Source: Candidatus Magasanikbacteria bacterium RIFOXYB2_FULL_38_10 (lineage in GTDB: Bacteria; Patescibacteriota; Patescibacteriia; Magasanikbacterales; UBA10003). From it: a DNA stretch of 47,449 nucleotides. Location: the NCBI GenBank assembly GCA_001783145.1, contig MFQT01000010.1, positions 1-47,449 on the forward strand, read 5' to 3'. The stretch's first letter is position 1; each line of letters starts with the position of its first letter. This document shows positions 2,773-38,237 of the stretch, piece by piece. A program made the translations under genes and the position numbers. Under the pieces are notes generated by a model that worked only from the letters and a program-made list of their open reading frames with translations, was not told where the DNA came from and ran no database searches.

Positions 2773-2783
2773 AAATTTTAAAA

Positions 2784-3335
2784 TTAAATCGTCATTACTT
2801 CTTTTTCTTTTTCGTCAGCTAATTGTTTTAAAAAATCATTTTGCTCTTTCATCGTTTTTTCCAATTTTTCCTGCAAAGCAAAACGCTGATCCTCACTTAA
2901 TAATTTGGATTTTTCTTGTTCAGATATTTCGTCTCTTATTTTATCGCGCAGTTGACGCAAGGAAATCCTAGAAGCCTCCAATTTTTGATTAACTACTTTT
3001 AAAAGTTCCTTTCTAAATTCTTCGGTCATAGGAGGCATTACCAAACGTACCATTTTACCGTCATTTACGGGATTTAAACCAATATTAGAAACCAAAATAG
3101 CTTTTTCAATTTCCTTAAGCATGGTTTTATCCCAAGGTTCAATAGTTATGGTTTTAGGGTCAGGAACCGCAATAGAGGCCACGCCCTTTAAATTCATTTT
3201 AGTACCATAAGATTCTACCAGAACAGAATCCAAAATGGCGGAATTAGCGCGACCGGTGCGCAAATGGCTTAATTCTTCTTTTAAGTGTTCCTGAATTTTT
3301 TTAAATTCCGGTAAAAAATTTTCTATTGTTAGCAT
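2784..3335 (-). CDS. frr: ribosome recycling factor
   Basis: 183 aa; full-length RRF-like sequence (LKEELSHLRTGRANSAILDSVLVESYG...). Confidence 0.9.
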   Translation of the reverse strand: MLTIENFLPEFKKIQEHLKEELSHLRTGRANSAILDSVLVESYGTKMNLKGVASIAVPDPKTITIEPWDKTMLKEIEKAILVSNIGLNPVNDGKMVRLVMPPMTEEFRKELLKVVNQKLEASRISLRQLRDKIRDEISEQEKSKLLSEDQRFALQEKLEKTMKEQNDFLKQLADEKEKEVMTI

Positions 3336-14086: not shown

Positions 14087-14488
14087 TTATTTTAAGGCAA
14101 CTTTTCCGCCGGCTTCTTCAACTTTCTTTTTGATGGATTCGGCAGTGGCTTTATCAGCGCCTTCTTTTACCATTTTAGGAGCACCATCAACCAAAGCCTT
14201 AGCATCGGCAAGTCCCAACCCGGTAACTTCACGCACAACTTTAATCACATTGATTTTGTTGGCGCCGGCTTCTAATAATTCCACATTAAAAGAAGTCTTT
14301 TCTTCTTCGGCAGGAGCGGCAGTGACGGCACCAACGGCCATAGCCATAACTGGAGCGGCGGCGGAAACACCAAACTTTTCCTCCAAGACTTTAACCAATT
14401 CGGCTAAGTCTAAAACCGACAATTTCTCAATTTGTTCAACGAGAGTTTTAAATTTCTCGGGAACAACTACATTTTTTTCTTCACTCAT
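14087..14488 (-). CDS. rplL: 50S ribosomal protein L7/L12
   Basis: 133 aa; Ala-rich hinge and conserved C-terminal domain ([30 protein letters not shown]). Confidence 0.95.
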
Positions 14489-14500
14489 AGTTGTATTAAA

Positions 14501-15043
14501 TTAAGCTGTTACTTTTTTATCTTTATAAGCGTTAAAAACTTGTACAAGTCCGCGTAAATTTCCGGCCAAGACATTTACAAAACCGGAGATTGGGGCTTGG
14601 ATAGAACCAACCAATTTGGCCAAAAGTTCTTCGCGAGAAGGCAAGGTGGACAAAACTTTTACTTCGTTGGCGGAAATAAAAGAATTCTGCCAAAGGCCTC
14701 CTAAAAGCGCCATTTTGTCATTGGTCTTAGAAAACTTGGTAATTATTTTTACCGCATCTAATTTATCACCAAAGTCAAAATTTAAACCAATAATGTGGCC
14801 CGGTAAAGTTTTAGCGTCATAATTGATACCGGCTTCTTTAAAAGCCAAATTCATTAAGGTTTTTTTAATAACAGCGCATTCAGAATTATTTTTGGATAAT
14901 TCACGTCTTAAATTGGTAATGTCCTTAACTTTTAAACCTTTGAAGTCAGTCAAAATAACCATCTTGGATTCTTTTAAAGCCTCCACTAAGGTTTTAATTA
15001 CCGACTCTTTTTGATTTCTACTCTTAGGCATAATTGTAAACAA
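14501..15043 (-). CDS. rplJ: 50S ribosomal protein L10
   Basis: 180 aa; L10 family; immediately upstream of rplL. Confidence 0.9.
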   Translation of the reverse strand: MFTIMPKSRNQKESVIKTLVEALKESKMVILTDFKGLKVKDITNLRRELSKNNSECAVIKKTLMNLAFKEAGINYDAKTLPGHIIGLNFDFGDKLDAVKIITKFSKTNDKMALLGGLWQNSFISANEVKVLSTLPSREELLAKLVGSIQAPISGFVNVLAGNLRGLVQVFNAYKDKKVTA

Positions 15044-15199
15044 AAAATCTGTGTTCTGCCACAGACTTGAAAACGGGTTTGCTTCGACCTATTTTGCCTT
15101 ATTTAAGACAAAATTAGCTCACCTCGGCAGGAAATTAAAGCCTTAAGGGCTACCTGCTATCTATGGTTAAAGATATTATAGATGAGAATATAAAAAATG
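15044..15199 (-). promoter_or_regulatory. putative L10(L12)4 autoregulatory leader of the rplJL operon
   Basis: 156-nt structured untranslated leader between pyrH and rplJ; hairpins tctgtg-ttctgc-cacaga and gcagg...cctgc; position matches the ribosomal L10 leader of other bacteria. Confidence 0.4.
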
Positions 15200-18781: not shown

Positions 18782-19744
18782 TTATTTTTTCCCCACTTTT
18801 TCCCCATCGCTCAACAATTCTACACTTCCCATTTCATCCGTTCTTAAAATTTCCACTCCGTGTCTTTCTAACCGCCGCAGTGTGCGTAAATGTGGATGGC
18901 CGAAATCATTATTTTTGCCAACAGAAATTATGGCATATTTTGGATTCACAGCCTTTAAAAATTCTTCATTGGTAGAAGAATTACTGCCATGATGGCCAAT
19001 TTTTAAAACATCAGCCTGCACATCTGCATCTTGAGCAAACAACTCTTTTTCTACCGGAACTTCCGCGTCACCCATGAACAAAAAACTTGTTCGACCAAAA
19101 ATCAATTTAAAAACAATAGAAGTATTATTTAAATTACTAAGCGCCAAACTTTTTAATTCCGGCTTGTTCAAATCAGCCGGACCCAAAGCCGATAAATCTC
19201 TTATAGGATACAAAAAATCTAATTTAACCCCACCAACCTTTACATCTTCTTTTGTTTTAACAAGATTTAAAGTAATTTTTTGTTCTTTAATCATTTTTAG
19301 CCACTCCAAAAAAGTTCCTGTAGTTTGTAATACTCCTGTATAATAAATACGACCCACTTCATAACGTTTTAAGACCTCCACCAAACCATCTAAATGATCG
19401 GCATGCGGATGGGTTAAAATCATTACGTCAATCTTTTTTTGGCCAAGCGGCAAATAGGTACCTAAACGCGACAGTACTTTATCATCCGATCCACCATCAA
19501 CTAAAATGGTTTGGTTCTCTGGCGTCATAATCAACGCCGAATCCCCTTGCCCCACATCAAAATAAATAACTCGCAAAACAGATTTAGACAAAGACGGCGG
19601 GAGAGAAAAATTCTGCGCGACAGCAGAACAGCCTGATAAAAAAATAGTTGATAATAAAAAAATTAAAAGCACACCAGATTTGGTTAAACATAACCGCTGT
19701 GGCCAAAAAATTTTTCTAGATTTTGCTTTTTTTAGAATTAACAT
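18782..19744 (-). CDS. ComEC/Rec2-type metallo-beta-lactamase domain protein with lipoprotein-like signal
   Basis: 320 aa; LSGC lipobox-like signal; MBL motifs LTHPHADHLDG and KIGHHGSNSS; overlaps the upstream ComEC channel gene by 29 nt in another frame. Confidence 0.8.
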   Translation of the reverse strand: MLILKKAKSRKIFWPQRLCLTKSGVLLIFLLSTIFLSGCSAVAQNFSLPPSLSKSVLRVIYFDVGQGDSALIMTPENQTILVDGGSDDKVLSRLGTYLPLGQKKIDVMILTHPHADHLDGLVEVLKRYEVGRIYYTGVLQTTGTFLEWLKMIKEQKITLNLVKTKEDVKVGGVKLDFLYPIRDLSALGPADLNKPELKSLALSNLNNTSIVFKLIFGRTSFLFMGDAEVPVEKELFAQDADVQADVLKIGHHGSNSSTNEEFLKAVNPKYAIISVGKNNDFGHPHLRTLRRLERHGVEILRTDEMGSVELLSDGEKVGKK

Positions 19745-21227
19745 AAATTAAATAAACTAAAAATAAATAAAATAACGCCGCGAGCCACCAAGGCAGGGAT
19801 AAATTTAAGGCAGAAAATTTCCAACCGGCCAAATATTCCGCCACCTTTAAAATATAACTTAAGACGGCCCAGGCCGCATAGGCAATAATTTTTCCCAAAG
19901 GCAGATAAATTATGCCTAAAAATAAGCACAAAAAACCTAAAAGCATAGCTAAAGGAACGACCGGCAAAATTAACAAATTAGCCAAAGGTGCTACCAGGGA
20001 AAATTGTCCAAAAGTATAAATAATTAAAGGCGAAGTAAAAATGATAGCGGAAAAAGTAGCTATAATAATTTCTTTTAGCCCCCAAAGAGCTGAAATTTTA
20101 ACCAAAATTTTTTCCAGAATTGGTGAAAAATAAATTAGGCCCAGGGTGGATAAAAAAGACAATTGAAAACCAACATCAAATAAAAGCAGACGCGGATTAA
20201 ATAATAGCATAATGGCGGCCGCTAAAATTAAAACTCGGCCGGCTGAAGATTGGCGCCCTATTTGTCTACCCCATAAAACCAAAACACCCATAAGGCCGGC
20301 ACGAATTACCGACGCCGAGGCACCGCTTAACAAAATGAAAAACAATATTACTCCCAAGATTAGTATAAAGGCGCGGCGACGGCTAAGACCAAAAAATTTT
20401 AACAACACCAAAAGACCAACCACGATAATAGTAATGTTATAACCGGAAATAGCAATAATGTGAGTGACTCCGGTTTTACTAAAAGCATTTCTCAATTCCG
20501 GTGGAAAAGTAGTTCTGTCGCCGTATAAGAGCCCTCGCAAAAAAGAAGATTGCGGCTCCGGCAAAAGATAATTTATTTTTTGGTTAAAGTAATTTCTCAA
20601 ATCCAAAAAAATTTTATAAAAAGAAAAATGCCGAGGTTGAAGATTGCTAATAATTTGGGCATTAAAACAAGCCGTCCAAACTCCTTCTTTTTGCAAGAAA
20701 GCCGCATAAGAAAATTGATCGTCTTTTAGTAATTCCTTAGGATCTGTTAAATTACAACGCACTTCCACCTCTTCACCAAAATCATGTAAAGGATATTTTT
20801 CTAAATATAAAATGGTTTTTCCTTGAATTTTTTTATAATTATCATCAACAAAAAATTTTAAAGCTTGAGAGTTTAGATAAACTCTTTGATAATTGCCGGA
20901 AATTTCCCCAGCACTAATAAGTATTCCTTTAACAATTACTAAGTGGCCGGTAAAAAAACGCAAATTTTGCGGACTTTTAGCAGGTTCCGATAAAACAAAA
21001 CGCCAAACCCCTAAAAACAAAAAAATGGAGAGCACAATTAATACTCGCCATTTTTTAGAGATTGTGATTCCTAAAGATACCAAAAGCAAAATTAAACAAC
21101 AACTAAGAAAAAATAAATTTTTTCTAGTTAAACCCAAAACAGAAGCACCGGCTATCCCTATAATAAAACTAACCAAACCGAACAAAAAAAATTTGGATTG
21201 AGATTCGGCTATTTTTTCTAAGAACAT
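19716..21227 (-). CDS. comEC: ComEC/Rec2 competence DNA-uptake channel (DUF4131 plus competence domain)
   Basis: 503 aa polytopic membrane protein; VTHIIAISGYNITIIVVGL competence-domain signature. Confidence 0.8.
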   Translation of the reverse strand: MFLEKIAESQSKFFLFGLVSFIIGIAGASVLGLTRKNLFFLSCCLILLLVSLGITISKKWRVLIVLSIFLFLGVWRFVLSEPAKSPQNLRFFTGHLVIVKGILISAGEISGNYQRVYLNSQALKFFVDDNYKKIQGKTILYLEKYPLHDFGEEVEVRCNLTDPKELLKDDQFSYAAFLQKEGVWTACFNAQIISNLQPRHFSFYKIFLDLRNYFNQKINYLLPEPQSSFLRGLLYGDRTTFPPELRNAFSKTGVTHIIAISGYNITIIVVGLLVLLKFFGLSRRRAFILILGVILFFILLSGASASVIRAGLMGVLVLWGRQIGRQSSAGRVLILAAAIMLLFNPRLLLFDVGFQLSFLSTLGLIYFSPILEKILVKISALWGLKEIIIATFSAIIFTSPLIIYTFGQFSLVAPLANLLILPVVPLAMLLGFLCLFLGIIYLPLGKIIAYAAWAVLSYILKVAEYLAGWKFSALNLSLPWWLAALFYLFLVYLIYVNSKKSKI

Positions 21228-21248: not shown

Positions 21249-24092
21249 TTAAACAACAATACTTAACAGCTTACCCTTAACAAAGATAATTTTTTTAGGT
21301 TCTTTGCCTTCCAGCCATTTTTTAATTTTTTCGCTAGATAAAACAATTCTTTTGGCCTCTTCTTCTGTAATATCCACCGCCACCTCTAAAGTATCACGCA
21401 ATTTACCATTAACTTGCACAGCCAAAATAAAAGTTTCATCTTTGGCCAATTCGGCGTTAAACTCTGGCCAAGCAGATTGAAAGATTGTTTTCTTATTACC
21501 TAGTTCCTGCCAAATATCCTCTGCCAAATGCGGAGCAAAAGGAGCCAGGAGTTTAATAAATTTTCCAAAATCGTCTTGGCTAATGATGGAAGAATCATTT
21601 AAATTATTAACAAAAATCATTAATTGCGAAACGGCTGTATTAAATTTCAATTCTCCAATATCATCGGTCACTTTCTTAATTGTTTTTTCAATTTCTCTTC
21701 TCAATTCTTTATTTGTCTCTTTGGCCCATTTAATTTTTTGTGAAAAGTTCCAAATTCTCTCTAAAAACCTTCTCATGCCTACCACGCCTTTGGTGCTCCA
21801 AGCACAAGGCTGACCAAATGGCCCCATAAACATTTCATAGAGCCTCATAGCGTCAGCGCCATATTCACCCACAACATCATTAGGATTGATAACATTATTC
21901 CAACGCTTGCTCATTTTGCGGCCATCCTCGGCCAAAATCAAGCCGACGTGTTGTAATTTAGTAAATGGTTCATCATAGTTTACCGCGCCGATATCAAATA
22001 AAAATTTATGCCAAAAACGCGCGTAGATTAAATGCCTGGTGGCATGTTCTGCCCCACCAACATACAAATTTATGGGCGACCAATATTTTTCTAAATTCTT
22101 ATCAACCAATGCTTTTTTATTATTGGGATCCTCATAGCGCAGATAATACCAACAAGATCCGGCCCATTGCGGCATAGTGTTAGTCTCGCGCTTGGCTGGT
22201 CCGCCACACTTGGGACAAGTTGTATTCACCCACTTTGTGATATTAGCTAGTGGAGATTCCCCTGTTCCTGTCGGCTCATATTTTTTAACTTTGGGCAATT
22301 CTAATGGCAAATCTTTTTCTGGCACGCTCACCCAGCCATCTTTCTCACATTTCACCAGCGGAATTGGTTCTCCCCAATAACGTTGCCTGGAAAAAACCCA
22401 ATCACGGATTTTGTATTGCACCTTTTTTTCTCCCAAACCTTTTTCTTTTAGCCAGTTAATTATTTTTTCTTTAGCCTCTAAAGTTGAAAGCCCATCCAAA
22501 AAATCAGAATTGATTGCGATGCCTTCACCAGCAAAACATTTTTCTTTAGGATCAATTGCGCGACGAATAAACTCCACTTGACCTTGTATATTATATTTTT
22601 CAAATAAAGATAAGGCATCTTTTAAATTTTGCCACTCACCGGTGTAATCCTCAAGATCTTCCATCTGCGGTGGTTGTTGTTTTTCTGATTTTAAATTGAC
22701 AATATATCCTTTTTGATATTTTAAACGTTGTATTTTTAAATCCTCAATATAAAAATTAGCCTGAATTGTTCCTAAAAAATCCCCCCTCTCAAAATCCAAA
22801 AATCCTGTCTCTTCAATTATTTCTCTTCTAAGTGTTTGTTCGTCACTTTCTCCTTTATTATATCTACCAGCCGGCAATTCATACTCGCCATTCGGGCGTT
22901 TCAACACATAAATCTGTCCTTTTTTATTTAACAAAACACCTGCCACGCCATCGGCGCGGATAAAATTGGTTTCAACTTCACCAAATTGTTTAGCTACCAC
23001 CTCTTTAATCCCCAATCCATACTTCTTAGCAAACTCATAGTCCCTTTCATCATGCGCGGGCACGGCCATAATGGCGCCGGTGCCATAACCCATCAAAACG
23101 TAATCCGCCACCCAAACCGGCAGTTCCTCTCCATTCACTGGATTTATGGCCACCACGTCTTCCAACTTCACGCCAGTTTTTTCTTTAGCCAAATCAGTCC
23201 TCTCCAATTCTGATTTATTTTTTGCTAGAGCAACGTAATCTTTTACTTCCACCAAATTACAAATTTCCCCTTCTAAACTATGTAGCAAAGGATGCTCTGG
23301 CGTAAGGACAACATAAGTAGCTCCAAACAAAGTGTCGGGACGAGTGGTAAACACTTCCAAACTTTCCTCCTGCCCACCTGCTTTTAATTTAAATGTCACC
23401 AAAGCCCCTTCGCTTTTCCCAATCCAATTTCTTTGCATCTCTTTTATGGATTCTTCCCATTCAGGCAAATTATCCAAGCCCTGCAATAATTTTTCTGCGT
23501 AATCGGTAATTCTAATCACCCACTGACGCAAGGGCTTGCGTTCTACAACAGAACCACAACGTTCACAAAGTCCTCCTTCCAAATCTTCATTAGCCAAACC
23601 GGTTTTACATCCCGGGCACCAGTTAATAGGCTCGTTTGATTCATAAACCAAACCTTTTTTAAACATTTCCAAAAACGCCCACTGCGTCCATTTGTAATAA
23701 GCCGGGTCGGTAGTATTAACTTCTCTGTCCCAATCATAGGTAAAACCCAAAAGTTCCAACTGCTTTTTAAAAATTTTGATGTTTTTTTCCGTAGCCACCG
23801 ATGGATGAACTTTATTCTTGATAGCGTAATTTTCCGCTGGCAGACCAAAAGCGTCCCAACCCATTGGATGCAAAACATTAAACCCCTGCATCATTTTCAT
23901 TCTGGCAATGACATCTGTGGCAATATAGCCCTTAGGATGGCCCACATGCAAACCTGCACCGGAAGGATAGGGAAACATATCCAAAACATAATATTTTGGT
24001 TTGTCGCCACCTTCTTTGGTTTTATAAATCCCCTTTTTAATCCACTCTTTCTGCCACTTCTTTTCTATTTCTTTGTGATTATATTTTTTCAT
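21249..24092 (-). CDS. leuS: leucyl-tRNA synthetase carrying an in-frame Nudix hydrolase domain insertion
   Basis: 947 aa; HVGHP, ZN-1 knuckle CPGC...CERC, editing domain TTRPDTLFGATY, RDWVFSRQRYWG, KMSKR. About 130 extra residues (aa ~375-500) after the editing domain contain a perfect Nudix box GRYNKGESDEQTLRREIIEETGF. Confidence 0.9.
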   Translation of the reverse strand: MKKYNHKEIEKKWQKEWIKKGIYKTKEGGDKPKYYVLDMFPYPSGAGLHVGHPKGYIATDVIARMKMMQGFNVLHPMGWDAFGLPAENYAIKNKVHPSVATEKNIKIFKKQLELLGFTYDWDREVNTTDPAYYKWTQWAFLEMFKKGLVYESNEPINWCPGCKTGLANEDLEGGLCERCGSVVERKPLRQWVIRITDYAEKLLQGLDNLPEWEESIKEMQRNWIGKSEGALVTFKLKAGGQEESLEVFTTRPDTLFGATYVVLTPEHPLLHSLEGEICNLVEVKDYVALAKNKSELERTDLAKEKTGVKLEDVVAINPVNGEELPVWVADYVLMGYGTGAIMAVPAHDERDYEFAKKYGLGIKEVVAKQFGEVETNFIRADGVAGVLLNKKGQIYVLKRPNGEYELPAGRYNKGESDEQTLRREIIEETGFLDFERGDFLGTIQANFYIEDLKIQRLKYQKGYIVNLKSEKQQPPQMEDLEDYTGEWQNLKDALSLFEKYNIQGQVEFIRRAIDPKEKCFAGEGIAINSDFLDGLSTLEAKEKIINWLKEKGLGEKKVQYKIRDWVFSRQRYWGEPIPLVKCEKDGWVSVPEKDLPLELPKVKKYEPTGTGESPLANITKWVNTTCPKCGGPAKRETNTMPQWAGSCWYYLRYEDPNNKKALVDKNLEKYWSPINLYVGGAEHATRHLIYARFWHKFLFDIGAVNYDEPFTKLQHVGLILAEDGRKMSKRWNNVINPNDVVGEYGADAMRLYEMFMGPFGQPCAWSTKGVVGMRRFLERIWNFSQKIKWAKETNKELRREIEKTIKKVTDDIGELKFNTAVSQLMIFVNNLNDSSIISQDDFGKFIKLLAPFAPHLAEDIWQELGNKKTIFQSAWPEFNAELAKDETFILAVQVNGKLRDTLEVAVDITEEEAKRIVLSSEKIKKWLEGKEPKKIIFVKGKLLSIVV

Positions 24093-25217: not shown

Positions 25218-26053
25218 TTAAATAAAATTAAAACTAAAACAAGCAAAAAAGCATATTGCAAACCCTGCAAGGCATTAACCAAAGTGACACTGGCGAGTGA
25301 AATAGCATAATTGATAAGCAAAAAACTGGCCGCTCCGGCAACCTGGCCAAACAAAAATAAAAAACCTGATTGACGCGCTATTTTTTTATCTTGATGAAAA
25401 ATATCATGTCGGTTTTGAGCGCTAAGTAATAAAAATAAAGCCCCGACAAAAGTGGTTAAGCGCAGCCAAACAAAAGCATTGACAAAAGATAAATTATTAA
25501 AGAGATACTTGGTTAAAGCATAAGACAAGCCAAAAAAGAAAGCGGAAAAAAGAGCCAACCAATAAACGCGGCGAGAATTAGATTTTCCGGTTTTGCCCAA
25601 AGAAATTAAAACTGTGCCTAAAATAATCACAACAAAAGCCATAATTTGTTTAGGGTTCAACCTTTCATTCAATATAAAAAAAGAAAAAATAAAAACAAAA
25701 ATCGGAGAAAAGCCGCCAATAAAAGGCGTGATGCGTGAGGATTCAGAAATTTTTAAAGATTTAAAAAGATAAAGTAACGCCAAAGCAAAAGAGATGCCGG
25801 CAATTAAAGAAACAAATAAATTCCACCAACTTATTAAAGCCAAACCCCAAGGCGCCAGCACCAGACCAAAGAGTCCCAATAAAGAAATATAAAAAACATA
25901 TACCGCGGGGTTGGAAATTTTTTTGGAAATCAAAATTTTATCTACCACAGCGGAGAGAGCATTTAAAAAATAGCCTATTAGGGAAATTAAAAGCCACATA
26001 AATATAGATACTGAAATTATAACAAATTTGAGGAATAAAAAAAGAGGACACAA
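25115..26053 (-). CDS. DMT/EamA-family 10-TM transporter
   Basis: Two tandem 5-TM EamA-like repeats. The ORF-track start at 26053 is a TTG; a more likely ATG is at 25999. Confidence 0.6.
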   Translation of the reverse strand: MCPLFLFLKFVIISVSIFMWLLISLIGYFLNALSAVVDKILISKKISNPAVYVFYISLLGLFGLVLAPWGLALISWWNLFVSLIAGISFALALLYLFKSLKISESSRITPFIGGFSPIFVFIFSFFILNERLNPKQIMAFVVIILGTVLISLGKTGKSNSRRVYWLALFSAFFFGLSYALTKYLFNNLSFVNAFVWLRLTTFVGALFLLLSAQNRHDIFHQDKKIARQSGFLFLFGQVAGAASFLLINYAISLASVTLVNALQGLQYAFLLVLVLILFKWRPNLLEEKIKGWVLVQKILAIILIGWGLFLLV

Positions 26054-26071
26054 GCGTTAACTCGTGTCCTC
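26037..26071 (-). terminator. rho-independent terminator ending the GC-rich minus-strand operon
   Basis: gaggacac...gtgtcctc 8-bp stem followed on the minus strand by TTTTTTT. Confidence 0.6.
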
Positions 26072-26242
26072 GGAGGTTCGTGCTTTGTCTTTGGAGTTAT
26101 CCTTAGACTGGCAATCCTCTTGACCGTACGGTTTTACGGCCACTTTATTTGGCTGACCTCCGCCTATGGAGCTTTCATTTACCCTTTTGGGGATGGTTAA
26201 AGCAGAAACCGTTAGATTGTAGATGTCGTAGCCCTGCTACGA

Positions 26243-26857
26243 CTAGGCCGCGGCGGCCTTCTTCTTCGGGGCGGCCTTGGCCTTCTTCCCGGCCTTGGGC
26301 TTGGCCGGCGCCTTCTTGCCCTCGTCCGCGGGCTGGGTCGGGGCGGCGGGCTCCGGCTTGGGCGGCGGGGTGTAGCCCGTGGCCTCGTGGAACCAGCTCG
26401 GCGCCGCGTCGTTGACCAGCACGCCCTTCTCACCGGCCTGGATGCCGAGCGCCTTGACCGCGCGCACCAGCACCATCTTGACCTCGGCGGCCGTGGTCAG
26501 CACCTTGGAGTAACGCGGCTGGTCGTCCTGCCCCGGCTGCTTCCAGTCGTACTTGGCCGGGAAGCTGGACTTGAGGTCCACGCCCTTGGCCGGCTCCACC
26601 CGCACGCGCACCTGGTGCCCCAGGTCTCGCACTCCGATCCTGCCCTTGGGGGTCACCGCCAGCACCAGGTACTGCCCAGTGCTCTCGGTCCCGCCCATGA
26701 AGAACGGGTTGACCTTCTTGCCGTCCTTCTTGACCACCTTCAGTGGCCAGTCCGGGAAGCCGAGCGCCTTGAACGCCTTGCTCATGTCCATGGGGTTCTC
26801 CTTCGGCGCCTTCTTCTGGGGCGCCGCGCCGGTGGTGGGGGTCTCTCCGCACGCCAT
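26243..26857 (-). CDS. basic protein: unknown N-terminal domain plus histone-H1-like Lys/Ala/Pro-rich C-terminal tail
   Basis: 204 aa, about 68% GC; tail PPPKPEPAAPTQPADEGKKAPAKPKAGKKAKAAPKKKAAAA; GAGGAGG Shine-Dalgarno upstream; last gene of the 3-gene operon. Confidence 0.7.
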   Translation of the reverse strand: MACGETPTTGAAPQKKAPKENPMDMSKAFKALGFPDWPLKVVKKDGKKVNPFFMGGTESTGQYLVLAVTPKGRIGVRDLGHQVRVRVEPAKGVDLKSSFPAKYDWKQPGQDDQPRYSKVLTTAAEVKMVLVRAVKALGIQAGEKGVLVNDAAPSWFHEATGYTPPPKPEPAAPTQPADEGKKAPAKPKAGKKAKAAPKKKAAAA

Positions 26858-26874
26858 TGTTGCCTCCTCGGAGC

Positions 26875-27717
26875 CTACTTTAGCTCCTTATCAGTTGGGA
26901 AACTTTCCTTTACACCCGTACCCGAACCGAATGCTCCAAACGTCCCCTGGCTTCCACCAGGCAAACGTGCTTGATCCAAATAACCATAGCGCGATGATCC
27001 CGGAGGATTAAAGCTGTCGTCTGCCAAATCCTCCAAGTAGTAAACGCCACTCTTTCCCCCGGTTCCGTAGTTGGTGATGCCAAGGGAGTAATCCCTCAAA
27101 GAAGGATCGTTCGAGTAGCTCTCGGGAAGATCTTCTCCCCGCAGAGCGAAAATCGCTTCCGCTTGCTCCAGCGTTTCCACCGACTTGTGGCAATGACGCT
27201 TACGAGCGGCAGAGATTGGATCCGGAGTCTGCTCCCTGTTCTCCAACAAAGCGATGAGAGACGCTAGGAACGTCCCTGTTCGCCCGTGAGAGCCGATGCA
27301 GTACACCATCACCTTTTTACCAGCCTGCAACAACGGAATGACTTTGTCAAGCAAGAACTCTTCAAAGCCATCCGGTGGTGGACTAAAGTCAGGCCAAGGG
27401 CAACCCAAGACCTGAACTGTCTGCCCCAGTTCCAAACGGATCGCCCGAGTATCATCCAGGGGTATCAAGACATCAAACCCGTCAAAATCCCCTTCTTTCA
27501 GATACCGTGTCCCGCCCGGATAGATCTGGTAAGGGCCAACCTGCACCGCCTTCTTACCGCGGTGTGCAGGGTGGCTATCTTTTTTAATCTTCAATTTTTT
27601 GGCAGAACCACCGCTTGCTGGGACAAAGCCCTTCTCGGTCCAATCCCAGGCTTGGTCAGAACCCTTACGGCCATGTCCAGTTGGCAGGCCGCCCTTTCCT
27701 CCTTGCTCTATCATCAT
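26875..27717 (-). CDS. dual-specificity / protein-tyrosine phosphatase (CX5R P-loop) with G/S/Y-rich low-complexity C-terminal tail
   Basis: 280 aa; catalytic VYCIGSHGRTGTF with upstream WPDFSPP...; tail YSLGITNYGTGGKSGVYYLEDL...GGSQGTFGAFGSGTG. Confidence 0.8.
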   Translation of the reverse strand: MMIEQGGKGGLPTGHGRKGSDQAWDWTEKGFVPASGGSAKKLKIKKDSHPAHRGKKAVQVGPYQIYPGGTRYLKEGDFDGFDVLIPLDDTRAIRLELGQTVQVLGCPWPDFSPPPDGFEEFLLDKVIPLLQAGKKVMVYCIGSHGRTGTFLASLIALLENREQTPDPISAARKRHCHKSVETLEQAEAIFALRGEDLPESYSNDPSLRDYSLGITNYGTGGKSGVYYLEDLADDSFNPPGSSRYGYLDQARLPGGSQGTFGAFGSGTGVKESFPTDKELK

Positions 27718-27738
27718 CCCCTCCTTTCGGCAGCCTGC

Positions 27739-30087
27739 CTAAGCTGCTTTTTGTAAAATCTTAGTCTTCCAAAGGCCAAGATTTTTACCCCTTTCAAACA
27801 ACTCCTGAACTTCTTTACTAAATTCCCACCGAGCCAAACCTTCGTAGAGAGAAGCAATGCTCGTAGCGTTCTTCTTAATCTCCAACTGCTCTTGAACCTC
27901 GTATCTGTCTCCGGACAACATCTCGTGCTTGTCAAAGACATTGCCCGTGTTGTGCTGAAGATCAAAAACGTGATCGGCAAAAGCAGAGTGATTCAGCTTG
28001 CCACTGAGGAACAAAAGGCCGGCCGTAGCAATAACAGCCCACTTGGGACCGCCAAAGCTATAGCCGCGCCATTTTCCCTTTTCAAAGGCTTCGGCGTTAA
28101 GGCGGAAGAATTCAATTGCCTCGGCCAAGTCCATCTTCTTTAAGGCCTCTTTCAGAATCTTCTGGGTATTCTCTCTGTTACTGGGACTAGTGCCCCAGTA
28201 GTCGTTCGGAAGATGATACTTAGCCCTAAGGATAAAGTAGGCCGGTGAGGCAGCTGTCACTTTGCTTTCATCGGCGAATTCATCATCCTTTTTTTGCGGA
28301 GAATAATGCCGCGATTCGGCACCAACGGCCATGGCCAGGTAGGCCACAAAACGCTCGGCCGTTTCAATATGGATCCGCCGACGCAAGCTGGCAACGGCAG
28401 ATTCCAACGCTGTTCCCTTGGACGCTTGGGTCATGGCGTCCACCAGGTAAAAGTCATTGAGAGTGGTATTGACGGAGACACGGCTCTCAATGTACGCGGG
28501 ATCAAGGCGGGGCTTTGGCCAATACAAGTTGCTCTTTTCCATCCAGCGCAAGAAGATGTTGGTTTCCTTCTTGGGCACTGGATTAGCCATTTCCACCACG
28601 CCATTCATAACCATTCCGGTTGCTCCGTCTACCGAAATGATCTGTCCTTGCTTCACCAAAAGATCTTGGACGCCGACCACCGCCGGCTTGCCAAAGCTTC
28701 TGGCTACGACAGCCGCGTGCGATGTTGCTCCGCCAACCTTAGTTACCACGGCGGCAGAAATGAGCAGTCCGGGAAGATCCGCTGGTGATGTCTCGTCGCG
28801 CACCAGGATCACCTTGACTCCGTTGTTTGCCAACTCAATGGCTTCAGCAGAACTCAAGGCAACTGTGCCCACGACCGCACCAGGCGAAGCCGGCAGACCC
28901 TTGGCTAAAAGTTTGGCTTGCGCCGCCCTCGCCAAGGCCTCTGGCTTGAACACCTGACGGCTCACCGCCTCTATCTGCTCTGCAGTAACCCGCCGCAAAG
29001 CTTCATCCTTGGTCAACAGCCTCTCCCAAACCATGTGAGTGGCAATAATGACCGCAGCTTCGGGGGTGCGCTTAGCTGCCCGATACTGCAGGATGTAAAG
29101 ACGGCCGTTTTCCACGGTGAACTCCACGTCCACCGCGTCTTTCAAATGGGCCTCCAGCTTCCGCACAATCTGCTGGAGTTCGATGAAGAGGTGGGAGTTC
29201 CACTCCTTCATCTTAGCAATTGGCAACGGGGTGCGGATCCCGGCCACCACGTCCTCACCCTGGGCATTAACCAAGAACTCGCCGTAAAGCTCAGGGTTGC
29301 CAGTGGAGACATCGCGGCTAAAAACGACCCCTGTGCCAGAGTCGTTGCCACGGTTGCCAAAAACCATGGCCTGCACATTGACCGCCGTTCCCCACCATTC
29401 GGGAATCTCGTGCGCCTGGCGGTAAGCCTTGGCGCGCTCGCTATCCCAAGAGAGAAACACGGCCGTGATCGCCATCTGTAGCTGCTGCCAAACATCGTCC
29501 GGCACCGAACGCTTAGTCGCACTGGAGATAAGCTCGCGATAATTCTCGCAAAGCTCTTCCAGCGACTTAATGGTCAGCTTGCTGTCCTCAGTTATGCCTT
29601 GCTTGCGCTTGGCCTTGGTGAGGATTTTCTCAAAGCGCTGACGATCAATACCCAGGACCACGTCACCGAAAAGGCTTAGAAACCTCCGGTAAGTATCCAA
29701 GGCGAAACGCTTTGAGCCGGTATCCTTGGCCAGACCCTTAACGGTCTTAGGATTCAGACCAAGATTGAGCACCGTGTCCATCATACCGGGCATGGACTTG
29801 GCCGCGCCCGAACGCACGGACACGAGAAGCGGAGAGGAGTTGCCCCCAAACCGCTTCCCGGTCCGTGCTTCCAGCGCCTTTACACCTCTTTGAAGCTGCC
29901 CGGCGAACCGGGCAGGAAAACCACCGTGCTCGCCAAAAGCGCGGGCAACAGTCGTCGTCACCGTGAACCCGGGCGGAACCGGCACGCCAAGGCGCACCAT
30001 TTCCGCAAGACCCGCTCCCTTACCGCCCAAAACCTGGGCAGTACGGGCTACCTCTCCAAAGAGGTAGACCACTTGTCCGTTCCTCAT
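27739..30087 (-). CDS. PPDK-derived phospho-histidine phosphotransferase: PPDK_N ATP-grasp plus PEP-utilizer swivel His domain plus a novel ~260-aa C-terminal domain replacing the pyruvate/PEP TIM barrel
   Basis: 782 aa; residues 1-520 align closely to pyruvate phosphate dikinase (LGGKGAGLAEM, LLVSVRSGAAKSMPGMMDTVLNLGLN, WGTAVNVQAMVFGN, NAQGEDVVAGIRTP, GGATSHAAVVARSFG). The C-terminal third lacks every PEP-utilizers_C motif and is about 48% GC against about 61% for the PPDK part. Confidence 0.85.
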   Translation of the reverse strand: MRNGQVVYLFGEVARTAQVLGGKGAGLAEMVRLGVPVPPGFTVTTTVARAFGEHGGFPARFAGQLQRGVKALEARTGKRFGGNSSPLLVSVRSGAAKSMPGMMDTVLNLGLNPKTVKGLAKDTGSKRFALDTYRRFLSLFGDVVLGIDRQRFEKILTKAKRKQGITEDSKLTIKSLEELCENYRELISSATKRSVPDDVWQQLQMAITAVFLSWDSERAKAYRQAHEIPEWWGTAVNVQAMVFGNRGNDSGTGVVFSRDVSTGNPELYGEFLVNAQGEDVVAGIRTPLPIAKMKEWNSHLFIELQQIVRKLEAHLKDAVDVEFTVENGRLYILQYRAAKRTPEAAVIIATHMVWERLLTKDEALRRVTAEQIEAVSRQVFKPEALARAAQAKLLAKGLPASPGAVVGTVALSSAEAIELANNGVKVILVRDETSPADLPGLLISAAVVTKVGGATSHAAVVARSFGKPAVVGVQDLLVKQGQIISVDGATGMVMNGVVEMANPVPKKETNIFLRWMEKSNLYWPKPRLDPAYIESRVSVNTTLNDFYLVDAMTQASKGTALESAVASLRRRIHIETAERFVAYLAMAVGAESRHYSPQKKDDEFADESKVTAASPAYFILRAKYHLPNDYWGTSPSNRENTQKILKEALKKMDLAEAIEFFRLNAEAFEKGKWRGYSFGGPKWAVIATAGLLFLSGKLNHSAFADHVFDLQHNTGNVFDKHEMLSGDRYEVQEQLEIKKNATSIASLYEGLARWEFSKEVQELFERGKNLGLWKTKILQKAA

Positions 30088-36986: not shown

Positions 36987-38237
36987 ATGACGAAGCTCCT
37001 CAACATCAAGGGCGATTTCCCAATCCTGAGAGAACCCAGGGGAGACGAAGGTGTTTTCCTGACCTACCTGGACAGCGGGGCATCGTCGCAGAAGCCCGAG
37101 GCGGTGATCAAGGCGGAGGAGCAGTTCTACTGCGCCTCCAACGCCAACATCCACCGCGGTGCCTACCGGCTGGCCCGCAAGGCCACGGAGATGTACGAGG
37201 CCGCGAGGGTCACGGTGGCCGCGTTCATCGGGGCCGGCGATCCCCGGTCCCTCGTCTTCACCAGCGGCACCACCATGGGCACGAACATCGTGGCCCACGC
37301 CTGGGCCGAGGGCAACCTCCAGGACGGCGACATCGTGCTCTTCACGGAGATGGAGCACCACGCCAACATCGTCCCTTGGCACCTGCTGGGCAAGCGCCGC
37401 GACATCAAGACCGCGGCCGTCAAGGTGGACGACCGCGGGGTGCTGGACATGGAGGATCTGAAGGCCAAGCTCACGGCCGGCGAGGGACAGGTGAAGCTGG
37501 TGGCCGTGACCCACGTCTCCAACGTGACCGGGGTGAAGAACCCCGTCAAGGAGATCACGTCTCTCGCGCATCAGTTCGGCGTGGCCGTGCTGGTGGACGG
37601 GGCGCAGTCCGCCCCCCATCTGCCCGTGGACGTGGAGGACATCGGGTGCGACTTCTTCGTCTTCTCCGGCCACAAGATGCTGGGGCCGACCGGCATCGGC
37701 GGCCTCTACGTGCGTCCCAGCCGCTGGAGCGAGATCTCCCCCTTCTTTGGGGGCGGTGACATGATCACGGACGTCACCCTGGAGAACTCGGCCTTCAAAC
37801 CCATGCCCAGCCTGCTGGAAGCCGGTACGCCCAACATCGCCGGAGCGGTGACGCTCGCGGCGGCCTGCGACTACCTCAAGAGCATCGGCATGGAGCGGGT
37901 TGAGGAGCACGTCAGGACCGTGGGCACCTACGCCTGGAACAAGCTCAAGGCCATTCCGGGCGTAAAGGTCTACGGACCCGGCCCGGGAGAGCACAGAACC
38001 GGTTCACTCGTCTCCTTCACCGTGGACGGCGTCAAGAACGACGAGATCATGGCGGAGCTGGACGAGTACGGGGTGGCGGTGCGCGTAGGCCGGTTCTGCG
38101 CCTGGCCCATCTTCAAGCGCCTGGGCTTGGGCAACAACGGGGCGGTGCGAGCCTCGTTCCACATCTACAACAACTACCAAGACGTTGATCTGCTGGCCTC
38201 GGTCATCCGGGGACTCGCCGAGCAGGCGCACCAGTAA
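36987..38237 (+). CDS. sufS: SufS/CsdA-type cysteine desulfurase (class V aminotransferase, PLP-dependent)
   Basis: 416 aa, about 65% GC; PLP-lysine motif SGHKMLGPTGIG; catalytic Cys loop RVGRFCAWP; whole-length similarity to group II cysteine desulfurases. Confidence 0.9.
   Translation: MTKLLNIKGDFPILREPRGDEGVFLTYLDSGASSQKPEAVIKAEEQFYCASNANIHRGAYRLARKATEMYEAARVTVAAFIGAGDPRSLVFTSGTTMGTNIVAHAWAEGNLQDGDIVLFTEMEHHANIVPWHLLGKRRDIKTAAVKVDDRGVLDMEDLKAKLTAGEGQVKLVAVTHVSNVTGVKNPVKEITSLAHQFGVAVLVDGAQSAPHLPVDVEDIGCDFFVFSGHKMLGPTGIGGLYVRPSRWSEISPFFGGGDMITDVTLENSAFKPMPSLLEAGTPNIAGAVTLAAACDYLKSIGMERVEEHVRTVGTYAWNKLKAIPGVKVYGPGPGEHRTGSLVSFTVDGVKNDEIMAELDEYGVAVRVGRFCAWPIFKRLGLGNNGAVRASFHIYNNYQDVDLLASVIRGLAEQAHQ

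What the first reader, a model, noticed from the sequence alone, without database searches (positions are those of the whole stretch)
22593..22970. Nudix hydrolase domain inserted in-frame into leucyl-tRNA synthetase
Between the end of the editing domain (…KYGLGIKEVV) and the conserved re-entry segment (…KKVQYKIRDWVFSRQRYWG) the protein carries about 130 extra residues. E. coli LeuRS has about 25 at this point. The insert contains a textbook Nudix box, G-x5-E-x7-REUXEEXGU (GRYNKGESDEQTLRREIIEETGF, nt ~22803..22871). A Nudix pyrophosphohydrolase fused inside an aaRS could hydrolyse Leu-AMP or dinucleoside polyphosphates (Ap4A is an aaRS side-product). It could also act in a nucleotide-based editing or signalling role. 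I am not aware of this architecture being described.
Basis: seen in the sequence. Interest (0 to 1): 0.65.

Follow-up and report, generated by a model that had tools for sequence, protein, structure and literature searches.

The report
Nudix hydrolase nested inside leucyl-tRNA synthetase
A leucyl-tRNA synthetase from an uncultured, small-genome bacterium (Candidatus Magasanikbacteria) carries a complete, apparently active Nudix nucleotide-hydrolase domain in a loop of its proofreading domain, and related enzymes swap this insert for other domains, an arrangement I could not find described in the searchable literature.

Summary

The insert lies inside the CP1 editing domain, not after it. It sits in the variable I4b loop beside the editing pocket. 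All LeuRS synthetic and editing motifs are intact.

It is not a one-off. Of the 120 closest LeuRS, all named ones from Candidate Phyla Radiation (CPR)/Patescibacteria, 31 carry a Nudix at this site. Others carry a nucleotidyltransferase-like domain or unknown domains there. Two further loops host alpha/beta-hydrolase, PD-(D/E)XK or Nudix domains.

Across the Nudix inserts only the metal-binding box residues are invariant, and dN/dS in one lineage is 0.07-0.10. Insert and host identities are uncorrelated (hosts 93% identical, inserts 38%), so the insert behaves as a recombination-swapped cassette.

Substrate is unassigned. The nearest characterised structures and the X-loop Tyr lean towards (di)nucleoside polyphosphates such as Ap4A. 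Leu-AMP hydrolysis is unlikely. No paper describing this was found.

Verdict: a real, probably active enzyme module; a new variant of a known kind.

The parts
21249..24092 (-). leuS, bacterial-type leucyl-tRNA synthetase, 947 aa, host of the insert
   Evidence: ORF. TIGR00396 scores 1032.9 bits. Foldseek and phmmer match T. thermophilus, E. coli and N. gonorrhoeae LeuRS. 100% identical to P0001, Cand. Magasanikbacteria GW2011_GWC2_40_17.
22554..22988 (-). Nested Nudix domain with its linkers (aa 369-513), inserted in the I4b loop of the CP1 editing domain
22800..22868 (-). Nudix box GRYNKGESDEQTLRREIIEETGF (aa 409-431); metal-binding R423, E424, E427, E428
   Evidence: Coordinates. G409, E424, E427 and E428 are the only invariant columns among 31 homologous inserts, and R423 is kept in at least 90%. 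It is the only such box in the window.
22749..22754 (-). X-loop aromatic pair F447-Y448, 16 and 17 residues after the Nudix box (candidate substrate-specificity position)
   Evidence: an aromatic residue at +16 in 30 of 31 inserts and Tyr at +17 in 17 of 31. PMC5389931 places the X-loop about 17 aa downstream and links a Tyr there with ApnA hydrolases.
22413..22553 (-). C-terminal remainder of CP1 after the insert (aa 514-560: strand, helix alpha3, exit strand up to RDW)
   Evidence: Second stretch of the PF13603 match. Aligns to Tth 371 onward. Helix 537-551 in the AF2 model.
23331..23348 (-). Editing-site threonine-rich motif TTRPDT (aa 249-254), intact
   Evidence: T249, T250, R251, D253 and T254 are invariant in the 41-sequence alignment.
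23040..23057 (-). Editing-site AHDERD motif with the catalytic Asp residues D348 and D351 (aa 346-351), 18 residues before the insert
   Evidence: H347, D348, R350 and D351 are invariant. SpLeuRS equivalents are D344/D347.
23937..23948 (-). HIGH signature (HVGH, aa 49-52) of the synthetic site
21903..21917 (-). KMSKS signature (KMSKR, aa 726-730). It follows only five residues (EDGRK, aa 722-726, whose final K is the first K of KMSKR) where T. thermophilus has its 58-residue leucine-specific domain
   Evidence: In the alignment, query 721/727 corresponds to Tth 579/638.

Best explanation
The segment encodes a complete, catalytically competent Nudix pyrophosphohydrolase domain nested in the I4b loop of the CP1 editing domain. 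I4b is a naturally variable loop between helices alpha2 and alpha3, at the rim of the editing pocket. The host LeuRS is otherwise fully functional.

Shown by the analyses:
- The domain is Nudix by sequence and by predicted fold.
- Its metal-binding residues are the only invariant positions across homologous inserts.
- A sister insert lineage is under strong purifying selection.
- The LeuRS synthetic and editing motifs are intact.
- The insert is one allele of a cassette-like site. Closely related LeuRS carry a different Nudix type, an unrelated domain or nothing there, with sharp boundaries.

Inferred:
- The Nudix works as an autonomous hydrolase that is co-expressed with and tethered to LeuRS. 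It is not a new step of leucine proofreading.
- Its most likely substrates are (di)nucleoside polyphosphates such as Ap4A to Ap6A, which aaRS make as side products. I put this at about 0.3. Other nucleotide-derived substrates remain possible.
- New alleles spread by homologous recombination through the highly conserved flanking LeuRS sequence.
For: Identity and fold:
- Pfam NUDIX E 5.5e-13, above its cutoff.
- AF2 insert model pLDDT 91.1. In the full-length model, Nudix residues score 79-93 in most 10-residue blocks, with one block (aa 471-480) at 71.
- The best sequence match among solved structures is the Aquifex Ap4A hydrolase 3i7u, E 2e-8 over its whole length.

Activity retained:
- In 31 inserts that are only 18-45% identical to this one, the invariant columns are G409, E424, E427 and E428, and R423 is kept in at least 90%.
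- In the P0036 lineage, dN/dS of the insert is 0.07-0.10 against 0.03-0.04 for the host.
- Tyr448 sits at +17 in the X-loop (PMC5389931).

Host intact:
- HIGH, KMSKR, TTRPDT, GTG and AHDERD are all present and invariant.

Location:
- The break is at Tth 364/371.
- The I4b loop lies between alpha2 and alpha3, is not conserved among bacteria and contacts ligands in the editing pocket (PMC3747510).

Cassette behaviour:
- 52 of the 120 closest LeuRS have nested inserts at three sites.
- Host and insert identities are uncorrelated: Spearman 0.03, p 0.58, 465 pairs.
- P0036 and P0077 are 96-100% identical in most 30-column windows outside the insert (lowest 79-90%) but 30-48% identical inside it. 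P0111 and P0093 in the same clade carry a short unrelated insert and none.
- Insert dS is about half the host dS.
- Insert GC3 is 0.255 against 0.389 +/- 0.035 for the host.

Autonomy:
- Free-standing homologues exist as independent genes.
- The nearest Nudix relatives are also nested in RNase PH or fused to GrpE, pyrophosphatase and histidine phosphatase.
Against: - No curated Nudix subfamily model reaches its cutoff: MutT 32 bits against 97.9, and the RppH models 19-21 bits against 116-259. The substrate is therefore a guess.
- The top structural neighbour, 2azw, is itself uncharacterised.
- A few homologous inserts have degenerate boxes (P0077 AEIKEE, P0112 TEVLEE, and L004/L005 RKIQEK), so catalysis is dispensable in some lineages.
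- The window's own insert type (cluster 6) has no relative close enough for a dN/dS test. Selection was measured on a sister type.
- I had no model coordinates, so the orientation of the Nudix active site relative to the editing pocket and the tRNA is unknown.
- LeuRS is not among the strongest Ap4A producers (my own knowledge).
- All data come from metagenome-assembled genomes, with no expression or biochemical evidence.
Confidence: 0.6

Rival explanations
1. Non-catalytic module. The Nudix fold serves as a structural cap or tRNA-binding appendage on the I4b loop. It would gate the editing pocket or help bind the tRNA acceptor end, as the I4ae insertion does in archaeal and eukaryal LeuRS, and hydrolase activity would be irrelevant.
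For: - The insert sits exactly in I4b, next to the editing pocket. In eukarya and archaea the insertion at the same topological position covers the pocket opening (PMC3747510).
- Unrelated domains occupy the same site in relatives: NTase-like, two unknown folds and short 60-70-aa inserts.
- Some Nudix inserts have degenerate boxes.
Against: - The only invariant insert residues are the Nudix metal ligands, which a purely structural role would not require.
- Close relatives without any insert keep the same editing motifs, so the module is not needed for LeuRS function.
- The same Nudix family is nested in unrelated proteins.
Confidence: 0.12
2. Resistance or conflict module. The swappable inserts (Nudix, serine hydrolase, ANT-like nucleotidyltransferase) are small-molecule-inactivating enzymes displayed on LeuRS. 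They would destroy or modify inhibitors aimed at this enzyme, such as aminoacyl-adenylate mimics or adducts in the editing site. Rapid allele turnover would reflect an arms race.
For: - Cassette-like turnover among near-identical hosts.
- The inserted families are ones typically used for small-molecule inactivation: PF06821/PF00561 hydrolases with a GHSxG motif, and PF10706 aminoglycoside-2''-adenylyltransferase-like domains.
- NCBIfam contains an IleRS with an N-acetyltransferase domain (NF040702, listed), a precedent for an aaRS carrying a modifying enzyme.
- LeuRS is a known target of natural and synthetic inhibitors. PDB hits include the TM84 (agrocin 84) complex 3zgz, the self-resistance LeuRS AgnB2 5ah5, and benzoxaborole complexes bound in the editing site.
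Against: - There is no direct evidence.
- PADLOC gives only a generic Nudix-box match.
- The related Nudix domains are also inserted in RNase PH, GrpE and pyrophosphatase, which are not known inhibitor targets.
- Within an insert type, evolution is conservative (omega 0.07-0.10) rather than diversifying.
Confidence: 0.12
3. Selfish or neutral passenger. In-frame domain cassettes invade permissive loops of an essential, highly conserved gene and spread by recombination, much as inteins do but without splicing. They would give little or no benefit to LeuRS or the cell.
For: - Patchy distribution at three fixed loops.
- Insert dS is about half the host dS.
- The insert has a lower GC3 than the host.
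- P0119 carries a PD-(D/E)XK nuclease domain at site A, E 4e-31.
- The organism has a ComEC competence channel gene next to leuS.
Against: - Strong purifying selection on the domain and invariance of its catalytic residues.
- No nuclease or Hint/intein domain accompanies the Nudix inserts.
- There are no flanking target-site repeats.
- The inserts are retained across LeuRS that are only 45-60% identical and across several CPR classes.
Confidence: 0.1
4. LeuRS-specific proofreading. The Nudix hydrolyses Leu-AMP or non-cognate aminoacyl-adenylates, or otherwise adds a nucleotide-based editing step.
For: The insert lies at the rim of the CP1 pocket, which also binds pre-transfer substrate analogues (PDB 1obh, among the hits).
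Against: - Aminoacyl-AMP has no pyrophosphate bond of the kind Nudix enzymes cleave (my own knowledge of Nudix chemistry).
- The insert is absent or replaced in near-identical LeuRS that keep identical editing motifs.
- The same Nudix family occurs in RNase PH, GrpE and pyrophosphatase, and as free-standing genes.
Confidence: 0.05
5. Artefact or removable element: an assembly chimera, a frameshifted gene pair, an intein or a self-splicing intron that is removed before the mature enzyme forms.
For: None beyond the unusual length of the protein.
Against: - The frame is single and uninterrupted.
- The identical protein is found on 8 contigs under three NCBI accessions naming at least two MAGs.
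- Dozens of homologous insert-bearing LeuRS come from independent studies.
- There is no Hint/intein Pfam match and no intron or other RNA family in the gene.
- AF2 models the insert as a domain continuous with CP1.
Confidence: 0.01

Closest known systems
CP1 peripheral insertions of LeuRS (bacterial I4b loop; archaeal/eukaryal I4ae helix)
   Same: Same topological position, between helices alpha2 and alpha3 of the CP1 catalytic core, just after the catalytic Asp and bordering the editing pocket. I4b is known to be variable among bacteria (PMC3747510).
   Different: The known I4b and I4ae are a loop and a helix of a few tens of residues with no enzymatic identity. Here the loop hosts a complete 145-aa enzyme domain, and it hosts other whole domains in relatives.
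Small free-standing Nudix (di)nucleoside-polyphosphate hydrolases: Aquifex aeolicus Ap4A hydrolase (3i7u), T. thermophilus Ndx1 (1vc8), M. tuberculosis Rv2985 (9cxx), and the DIPP/DDP1 enzymes
   Same: Same fold and size, a canonical Nudix box, and a Tyr about 17 residues after the box. These are the best sequence and structure matches among characterised proteins.
   Different: Only 15-26% identity. No curated subfamily model reaches its cutoff. The domain is nested inside another enzyme rather than free-standing, and activity is untested.
E. faecalis MutT/Nudix family protein 2azw
   Different: It comes from a structural-genomics project and has no assigned substrate. It is free-standing and only 21-23% identical.
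aaRS carrying extra enzymatic domains, e.g. IleRS with an N-acetyltransferase domain (NCBIfam NF040702) and the INS editing domain inserted in bacterial ProRS
   Same: A second catalytic domain is built into an aminoacyl-tRNA synthetase polypeptide. ProRS INS is likewise an insertion within the enzyme (my own knowledge). NF040702 is listed.
   Different: The domain family differs (Nudix) and so does the host site (inside the editing domain itself). Here the insert is facultative and exchangeable among close relatives.
Inteins in conserved essential genes
   Same: Sporadic presence among close relatives, fixed insertion points in a highly conserved essential gene, and insert alleles that diverge independently of the host.
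   Different: There is no Hint/splicing domain and no homing endonuclease in the Nudix inserts. The insert stays in the mature protein and keeps its own catalytic site.

Membership tests
Nudix hydrolase superfamily (PF00293) | Profile match above the curated gathering score | tested here: met
   49.5 bits against a cutoff of 21.1, E 5.5e-13, aa 380-496, profile positions 3-119 of 134.
Nudix hydrolase superfamily (PF00293) | Nudix box G-x5-E-x7-R-E-U-x-E-E-x-G-U with the metal-binding Glu residues | tested here: met
   GRYNKGESDEQTLRREIIEETGF at aa 409-431. G409, E424, E427 and E428 are invariant across 31 homologous inserts.
Nudix hydrolase superfamily (PF00293) | Alpha/beta/alpha Nudix fold | tested here: met
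Nudix hydrolase superfamily (PF00293) | Divalent-cation-dependent pyrophosphohydrolase activity | not testable with these tools
   Needs an enzyme assay. The indirect support is conservation of the catalytic residues and omega of 0.07-0.10 in a sister lineage.
ApnA (dinucleoside polyphosphate) hydrolase subgroup of Nudix | Tyr in the X-loop about 16-18 residues after the box (Dunn et al. 1999, as reviewed in PMC5389931) | tested here: met
   Y448 is at +17. Tyr is at +17 in 17 of 31 inserts and an aromatic residue at +16 in 30 of 31. This marker correlates with the activity but does not prove it.
ApnA (dinucleoside polyphosphate) hydrolase subgroup of Nudix | Equivalog-level match to a curated RppH/NudH/Ap4A-type model | tested here: not met
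   The RppH models NF001934-NF001938 score 19-21 bits against cutoffs of 116-259.
MutT 8-oxo-dGTP diphosphatase (TIGR00586) | Score at or above the curated cutoff | tested here: not met
   27.8-32 bits against a cutoff of 97.9.
Bacterial leucyl-tRNA synthetase (TIGR00396) | Equivalog score, HIGH and KMSKS signatures, and a CP1 editing site (T-rich motif and catalytic Asp) | tested here: met
   1032.9 bits against 548.4. HVGH at 49, KMSKR at 726, TTRPDT at 249, AHDERD at 346, all invariant among relatives. The leucine-specific domain is absent, as in some other bacterial LeuRS (PMC3643597).
LeuRS CP1 insertion I4b | Located between helices alpha2 and alpha3 of the CP1 core, downstream of the catalytic Asp | tested here: met
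   The insert (aa 369-513) lies between helix 349-358 and helix 537-551 of the model. SpLeuRS I4b residue T373 corresponds to about window residue 377. The alignment breaks at Tth 364/371.
Intein | Hint/splicing domain with conserved N- and C-terminal splice junction residues | tested here: not met
   The protein has no Hint or intein Pfam match. The insert boundaries, K368/Q369 and I513/D514, do not carry the usual intein splice-junction residues (N-terminal Cys/Ser, C-terminal His-Asn followed by Cys/Ser/Thr), and the whole insert is accounted for by the Nudix fold.

The most novel reading that the evidence does not exclude
Three surface loops of CPR LeuRS would be recombination-driven cassette sites. 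They are I4b beside the editing pocket, a loop just before the T-rich motif, and a loop inside the CxxC zinc module. On an essential enzyme they would display interchangeable small-molecule-processing enzymes (Nudix, serine hydrolase, ANT-like nucleotidyltransferase, PD-(D/E)XK and unknown folds). These would act as a conflict or resistance system, or as a nucleotide/tRNA-end surveillance system. That would be a previously unrecognised way of evolving accessory functions by swapping nested domains within an aaRS.
Probability: 0.15. Interest if true: 0.85.

Novelty: new variant of a known kind. Interest (0 to 1): 0.62.

Why it matters
- Accessory domains of aaRS are a recognised route to new functions. 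A second hydrolase nested inside the proofreading domain itself, at the rim of the editing pocket, has not to my knowledge been described.
- If the Nudix degrades Ap4A or other ApnA, it would physically couple a producer of these alarmone-like dinucleotides to their removal, in organisms with very small genomes.
- The wider pattern may matter more than the single case. 52 of the 120 nearest LeuRS carry nested domains at three loops. Alleles are exchanged among hosts that are 93-100% identical.
- That pattern gives a natural experiment on how whole domains are gained, swapped and lost inside an essential enzyme.
- It also marks permissive sites for engineering LeuRS.
- It cautions that CPR housekeeping proteins can hide extra enzymes that genome annotation reports only as 'leucine--tRNA ligase'.

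Tried and rejected
- A word-index homology search with the insert alone found nothing. This was a sensitivity limit of that tool. The exhaustive representative search found 501 relatives, and a profile search found free-standing and LeuRS-embedded relatives.
- A genome scan with the insert alignment failed because no stretch was conserved enough.
- The afdb50 fold library was unavailable.
- Flanking repeats and target-site duplications: only chance Lys-codon repeats were found.
- Intron or other RNA element in the gene: none at Rfam gathering thresholds.
- tRNA genes: none in the window.
- Intein: no Hint domain.
- Defence-system membership: PADLOC gave only a generic Nudix-box match, PDC-S07.
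- Assignment to a characterised Nudix subfamily by NCBIfam failed, with every model below its cutoff.
- The neighbour-joining host tree is star-like and was used only qualitatively.
- Six literature searches for Nudix with LeuRS, aaRS, CPR or Patescibacteria returned nothing relevant.
Full report
**1. Observation**

The finding lies in one uninterrupted minus-strand ORF, 21249..24092, of 947 aa. It is a bacterial-type LeuRS:
- TIGR00396 scores 1032.9 bits against a cutoff of 548.
- The best solved relatives are T. thermophilus, N. gonorrhoeae and E. coli LeuRS.

Pfam places a NUDIX domain (PF00293) at aa 380-496, with E 5.5e-13 and 49.5 bits against a gathering score of 21.1. It lies between two pieces of the LeuRS editing-domain profile PF13603.

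The Nudix box GRYNKGESDEQTLRREIIEETGF is a perfect match to the consensus. It lies at aa 409-431, nt 22800-22868. It is the only such box in any frame of the window.

The alignment to T. thermophilus LeuRS stops at Tth residue 364 and resumes at 371, so window aa 369-513 (nt 22554-22988) are extra. Between the conserved anchors AHDxRDxxFA and RDWxxSRQRxWG this protein has 207 residues. Insert-free LeuRS from many phyla have 62-74.

The protein is 100% identical to the LeuRS of Candidatus Magasanikbacteria GW2011_GWC2_40_17. It is recorded on 8 contigs under three NCBI accessions, which name at least two MAGs, so it is not an assembly accident.

**2. Anatomy**

AlphaFold2 with 41 homologues gives mean pLDDT 80.7. 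In most 10-residue blocks the Nudix region scores 79-93, with one block (aa 471-480) at 71. The insert alone, with 31 homologous inserts, gives pLDDT 91.1 and pTM 0.86, with the strand/helix order of a Nudix fold.

Fold and sequence comparisons of the insert:
- By sequence, the best solved relative is also 3i7u, E 2e-8 over its whole length.

The insert follows helix 349-358, which itself follows the catalytic Asp pair in AHDERD (D348 and D351). It precedes helix 537-551. This is the position of the bacterial CP1 insertion I4b. PMC3747510 describes I4b as a long loop between alpha2 and alpha3 that is not conserved among bacterial LeuRS and lines the editing pocket. The insertion at the equivalent place in eukarya and archaea (I4ae) covers the pocket opening.

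The host motifs are all present, and the alignment summary lists their key residues as invariant among 41 relatives:
- HVGH at aa 49.
- KMSKR at aa 726.
- TTRPDT at aa 249.
- GTGAIM at aa 337.
- AHDERD at aa 346.

**3. It is a family, not a singleton**

Of the 120 closest LeuRS (57-75% identical; all named ones are Magasanikbacteria, Patescibacteria or Parcubacteria), 52 carry nested inserts of at least 30 aa, at three fixed sites.

Site B is the one in this window. It holds:
- a Nudix in 31 proteins;
- a nucleotidyltransferase-like domain (PF14907/PF10706) in 2;
- two unknown folds of about 125-138 aa in 7;
- short inserts in 2.

Site C lies between the CxxC of 'HCExC' and 'GW(V/I)P'. It holds a serine hydrolase of the alpha/beta fold (PF06821/PF00561, with the GHSxG motif present) in 16 proteins. 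Seven of these also have the site-B Nudix.

Site A lies just before TTRPDT. It holds an alpha/beta hydrolase in 3 proteins, a PD-(D/E)XK nuclease domain in one (E 4e-31) and a Nudix in one (E 1e-14). P0097 has all three sites occupied and is 1260 aa long.

The exhaustive representative search with the insert found 501 relatives. Most of the best hits are LeuRS or LeuRS fragments whose hosts are only 45-50% identical, and some carry three Nudix domains or an added HAD domain; tandem-Nudix and Nudix-fusion proteins are interspersed among them.

In species-representative genomes the site-B Nudix also occurs in Saccharibacteria and Minisyncoccia. Low-GC MAGs labelled 'Bacilli' have a version with a degenerate box. 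Doudnabacteria, Bipolaricaulota and Chloroflexales carry inserts of about 115 aa without a Nudix box at the same site, and those of Bipolaricaulota and Chloroflexales resemble each other.

**4. Is the Nudix functional?**

The 31 site-B Nudix inserts are only 18-45% identical to the window's insert, with a mean column identity of 36%. The only invariant columns are G409, E424, E427 and E428, and R423 is kept in at least 90%. These are exactly the Nudix-box residues that bind the metals.

For the P0036 lineage I fetched the DNA of three relatives that are over 95% identical in protein sequence and computed Nei-Gojobori dN/dS. The insert gives 0.07-0.10 and the host 0.03-0.04. The domain is therefore under strong purifying selection.

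A minority of inserts have lost box residues (P0077, P0112, L004/L005), so activity is not universal.

**5. Cassette behaviour**

Pairwise identity of hosts and of inserts is uncorrelated: Spearman 0.03, p 0.58, 465 pairs. Examples, given as host identity against insert identity:
- P0036 and P0077: 93% against 38%.
- P0034 and P0049: 93% against 26%.
- The window protein and P0003: 80% against 18%.
- P0036 and P0113: 83% against 89%, the reverse pattern.

Sliding identity between P0036 and P0077 is 96-100% in most 30-column windows outside the insert, with a few at 79-90%. It falls to 30-48% inside the insert and returns to 83-100% after it. In the same clade P0111 has a short unrelated insert and P0093 has none.

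Three further observations fit exchange of alleles:
- Synonymous divergence of the insert is about half that of the host in all three comparisons.
- In the window, the insert has GC3 0.255 against 0.389 +/- 0.035 for same-sized host segments.
- No flanking repeats were found, and no intein or intron signature.

The simplest reading is allelic exchange by homologous recombination through the very conserved flanks. A ComEC competence gene is the next gene downstream of leuS, which is suggestive only.

**6. Autonomy of the domain**

Free-standing genes of 162-185 aa that are homologous to one insert type exist on long contigs. They include the N-terminal extension of that insert type.

Close relatives of the insert Nudix are also found in other proteins:
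- nested between the two domains of RNase PH;
- fused to GrpE;
- fused to inorganic pyrophosphatase;
- fused to a histidine phosphatase.

This argues that the Nudix is a self-contained enzyme that tolerates being nested, not a device specific to leucine proofreading.

**7. Mechanism**

Shown:
- A folded Nudix with an intact catalytic box sits in the I4b loop of an intact LeuRS.
- Selection maintains the catalytic residues.
- The insert is exchangeable and dispensable for LeuRS function in near relatives.

Inferred:
- The domain acts as a tethered, co-expressed pyrophosphohydrolase.

Substrate: no curated subfamily model reaches its cutoff. Three independent but weak indicators point to (di)nucleoside polyphosphates. 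I give this about 0.3.
- The best sequence match among solved structures is an Ap4A hydrolase.
- A Tyr lies 17 residues after the box, in the X-loop that determines specificity. Tyr at this position is associated with ApnA hydrolases (PMC5389931).

Since aaRS make Ap4A from the aminoacyl-adenylate and ATP (textbook knowledge), removal of this by-product in cis is an attractive but untested role. Leu-AMP hydrolysis is chemically unlikely for a Nudix enzyme.

Rivals, in order of the weight I give them:
- A non-catalytic cap or gate on the editing pocket.
- A resistance or conflict module, suggested by the kinds of domains that alternate at these sites and by the rapid allele turnover.
- A selfish in-frame passenger.
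- An artefact.

**8. Comparison with what is known, and novelty**

Membership in the Nudix superfamily is met on profile, motif and predicted fold. Membership in MutT or RppH equivalogs was tested and not met. LeuRS membership is met.

The closest known things are:
- the I4b/I4ae peripheral insertions of CP1 (same place, but only short peptides);
- small ApnA-type Nudix hydrolases (same fold, but free-standing);
- aaRS with built-in extra enzymes, such as IleRS with GNAT and ProRS INS;
- inteins, for the population behaviour only.

Public databases already tag these proteins with both Pfam domains. However, six full-text searches found no description of this architecture, and a 178,000-character review of the Nudix clan never mentions a tRNA synthetase or ligase.

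I therefore rate it a new variant of a known kind. The recombining multi-domain cassette pattern is the most interesting and least expected part.

Noticed in passing
window 26001-30000, 37001-38000, 42001-43000: Islands of high GC (0.51-0.66) in a window whose background is otherwise about 0.33-0.42. They contain a PPDK/PEP-utilising-enzyme-like gene (27739-30087), a DSP-phosphatase-like gene (26875-27717), a class-V aminotransferase/cysteine-desulfurase-like gene (36987-38237, E 8e-124) and a Band-7/SPFH gene (41760-43802). They could be recent horizontal acquisitions, or genes under a different compositional constraint.
   Followed up: partly
window 21903-21932 (aa 721-730): This LeuRS lacks the leucine-specific domain. 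T. thermophilus residues 580-637 are replaced by five residues (EDGRK, whose last K opens KMSKR). This resembles the GKDG tetrapeptide of Mycoplasma mobile LeuRS (PMC3643597 abstract).
   Followed up: partly
relatives P0039, P0040, P0045, P0047, P0052, P0099, P0005, P0019, P0022, P0034 and others (site C, equivalent to window aa ~582-586, CEKDGW): An alpha/beta serine hydrolase of 183-204 aa (PF06821/PF00561, GHSxG present) is inserted between the CxxC of the zinc module and GW(V/I)P in 16 of the 120 closest LeuRS. In 7 of these it occurs together with the site-B Nudix.
   Followed up: partly
relatives P0119, P0021/P0025/P0030 and P0097 (site A, just before TTRPDT; equivalent to window aa ~236-246): A third insertion site in CP1 hosts a PD-(D/E)XK nuclease domain (PF13366, E 4e-31), an alpha/beta hydrolase or a second Nudix. 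P0097 has three nested domains and is 1260 aa long.
   Followed up: partly
P0199, P0126, P0187, P0150, P0145, P0198 (hits): Close relatives of the insert Nudix are nested between the two domains of RNase PH, or fused to GrpE, inorganic pyrophosphatase or a histidine phosphatase. Some LeuRS carry three Nudix domains, one of them with a HAD hydrolase as well. Nested Nudix domains may be a general feature of these genomes.
   Followed up: partly
L008 (Doudnabacteria), L010 (Bipolaricaulota), L014 (Chloroflexales), match region ~2501-3300 of each locus: LeuRS from lineages that include two non-CPR phyla, two of them high-GC, carry inserts of about 115 aa without a Nudix box at the same I4b site. 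Those of L010 and L014 visibly resemble each other, and L008's is of similar size. Site B is therefore permissive well beyond Patescibacteria. I did not scan these against Pfam. The unknown inserts in P0032 and P0061 had no Pfam match.
   Followed up: no
L083, L084, L085 (leuS of P0036, P0337, P0338): Synonymous divergence of the Nudix insert (dS 0.30-0.39) is about half that of the surrounding leuS (0.60-0.69) in all three pairwise comparisons. This suggests the insert allele is younger than its host genes, or that it has different codon constraints.
   Followed up: partly
window 15033-15184 (-): A ribosomal protein L10 leader (RF00557, 51.4 bits) lies upstream of the apparent rplJ-rplL pair at 14087-15043. 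It is the only Rfam match in the window, and there are no tRNA or rRNA genes.
   Followed up: no
window 18782-21227 (-): The genes next to leuS on its downstream side are a ComEC competence-channel gene (PF03772, E 1.7e-58) and a metallo-beta-lactamase-fold gene. DNA-uptake capacity fits the recombination-driven turnover of the insert, but this was not tested.
   Followed up: no
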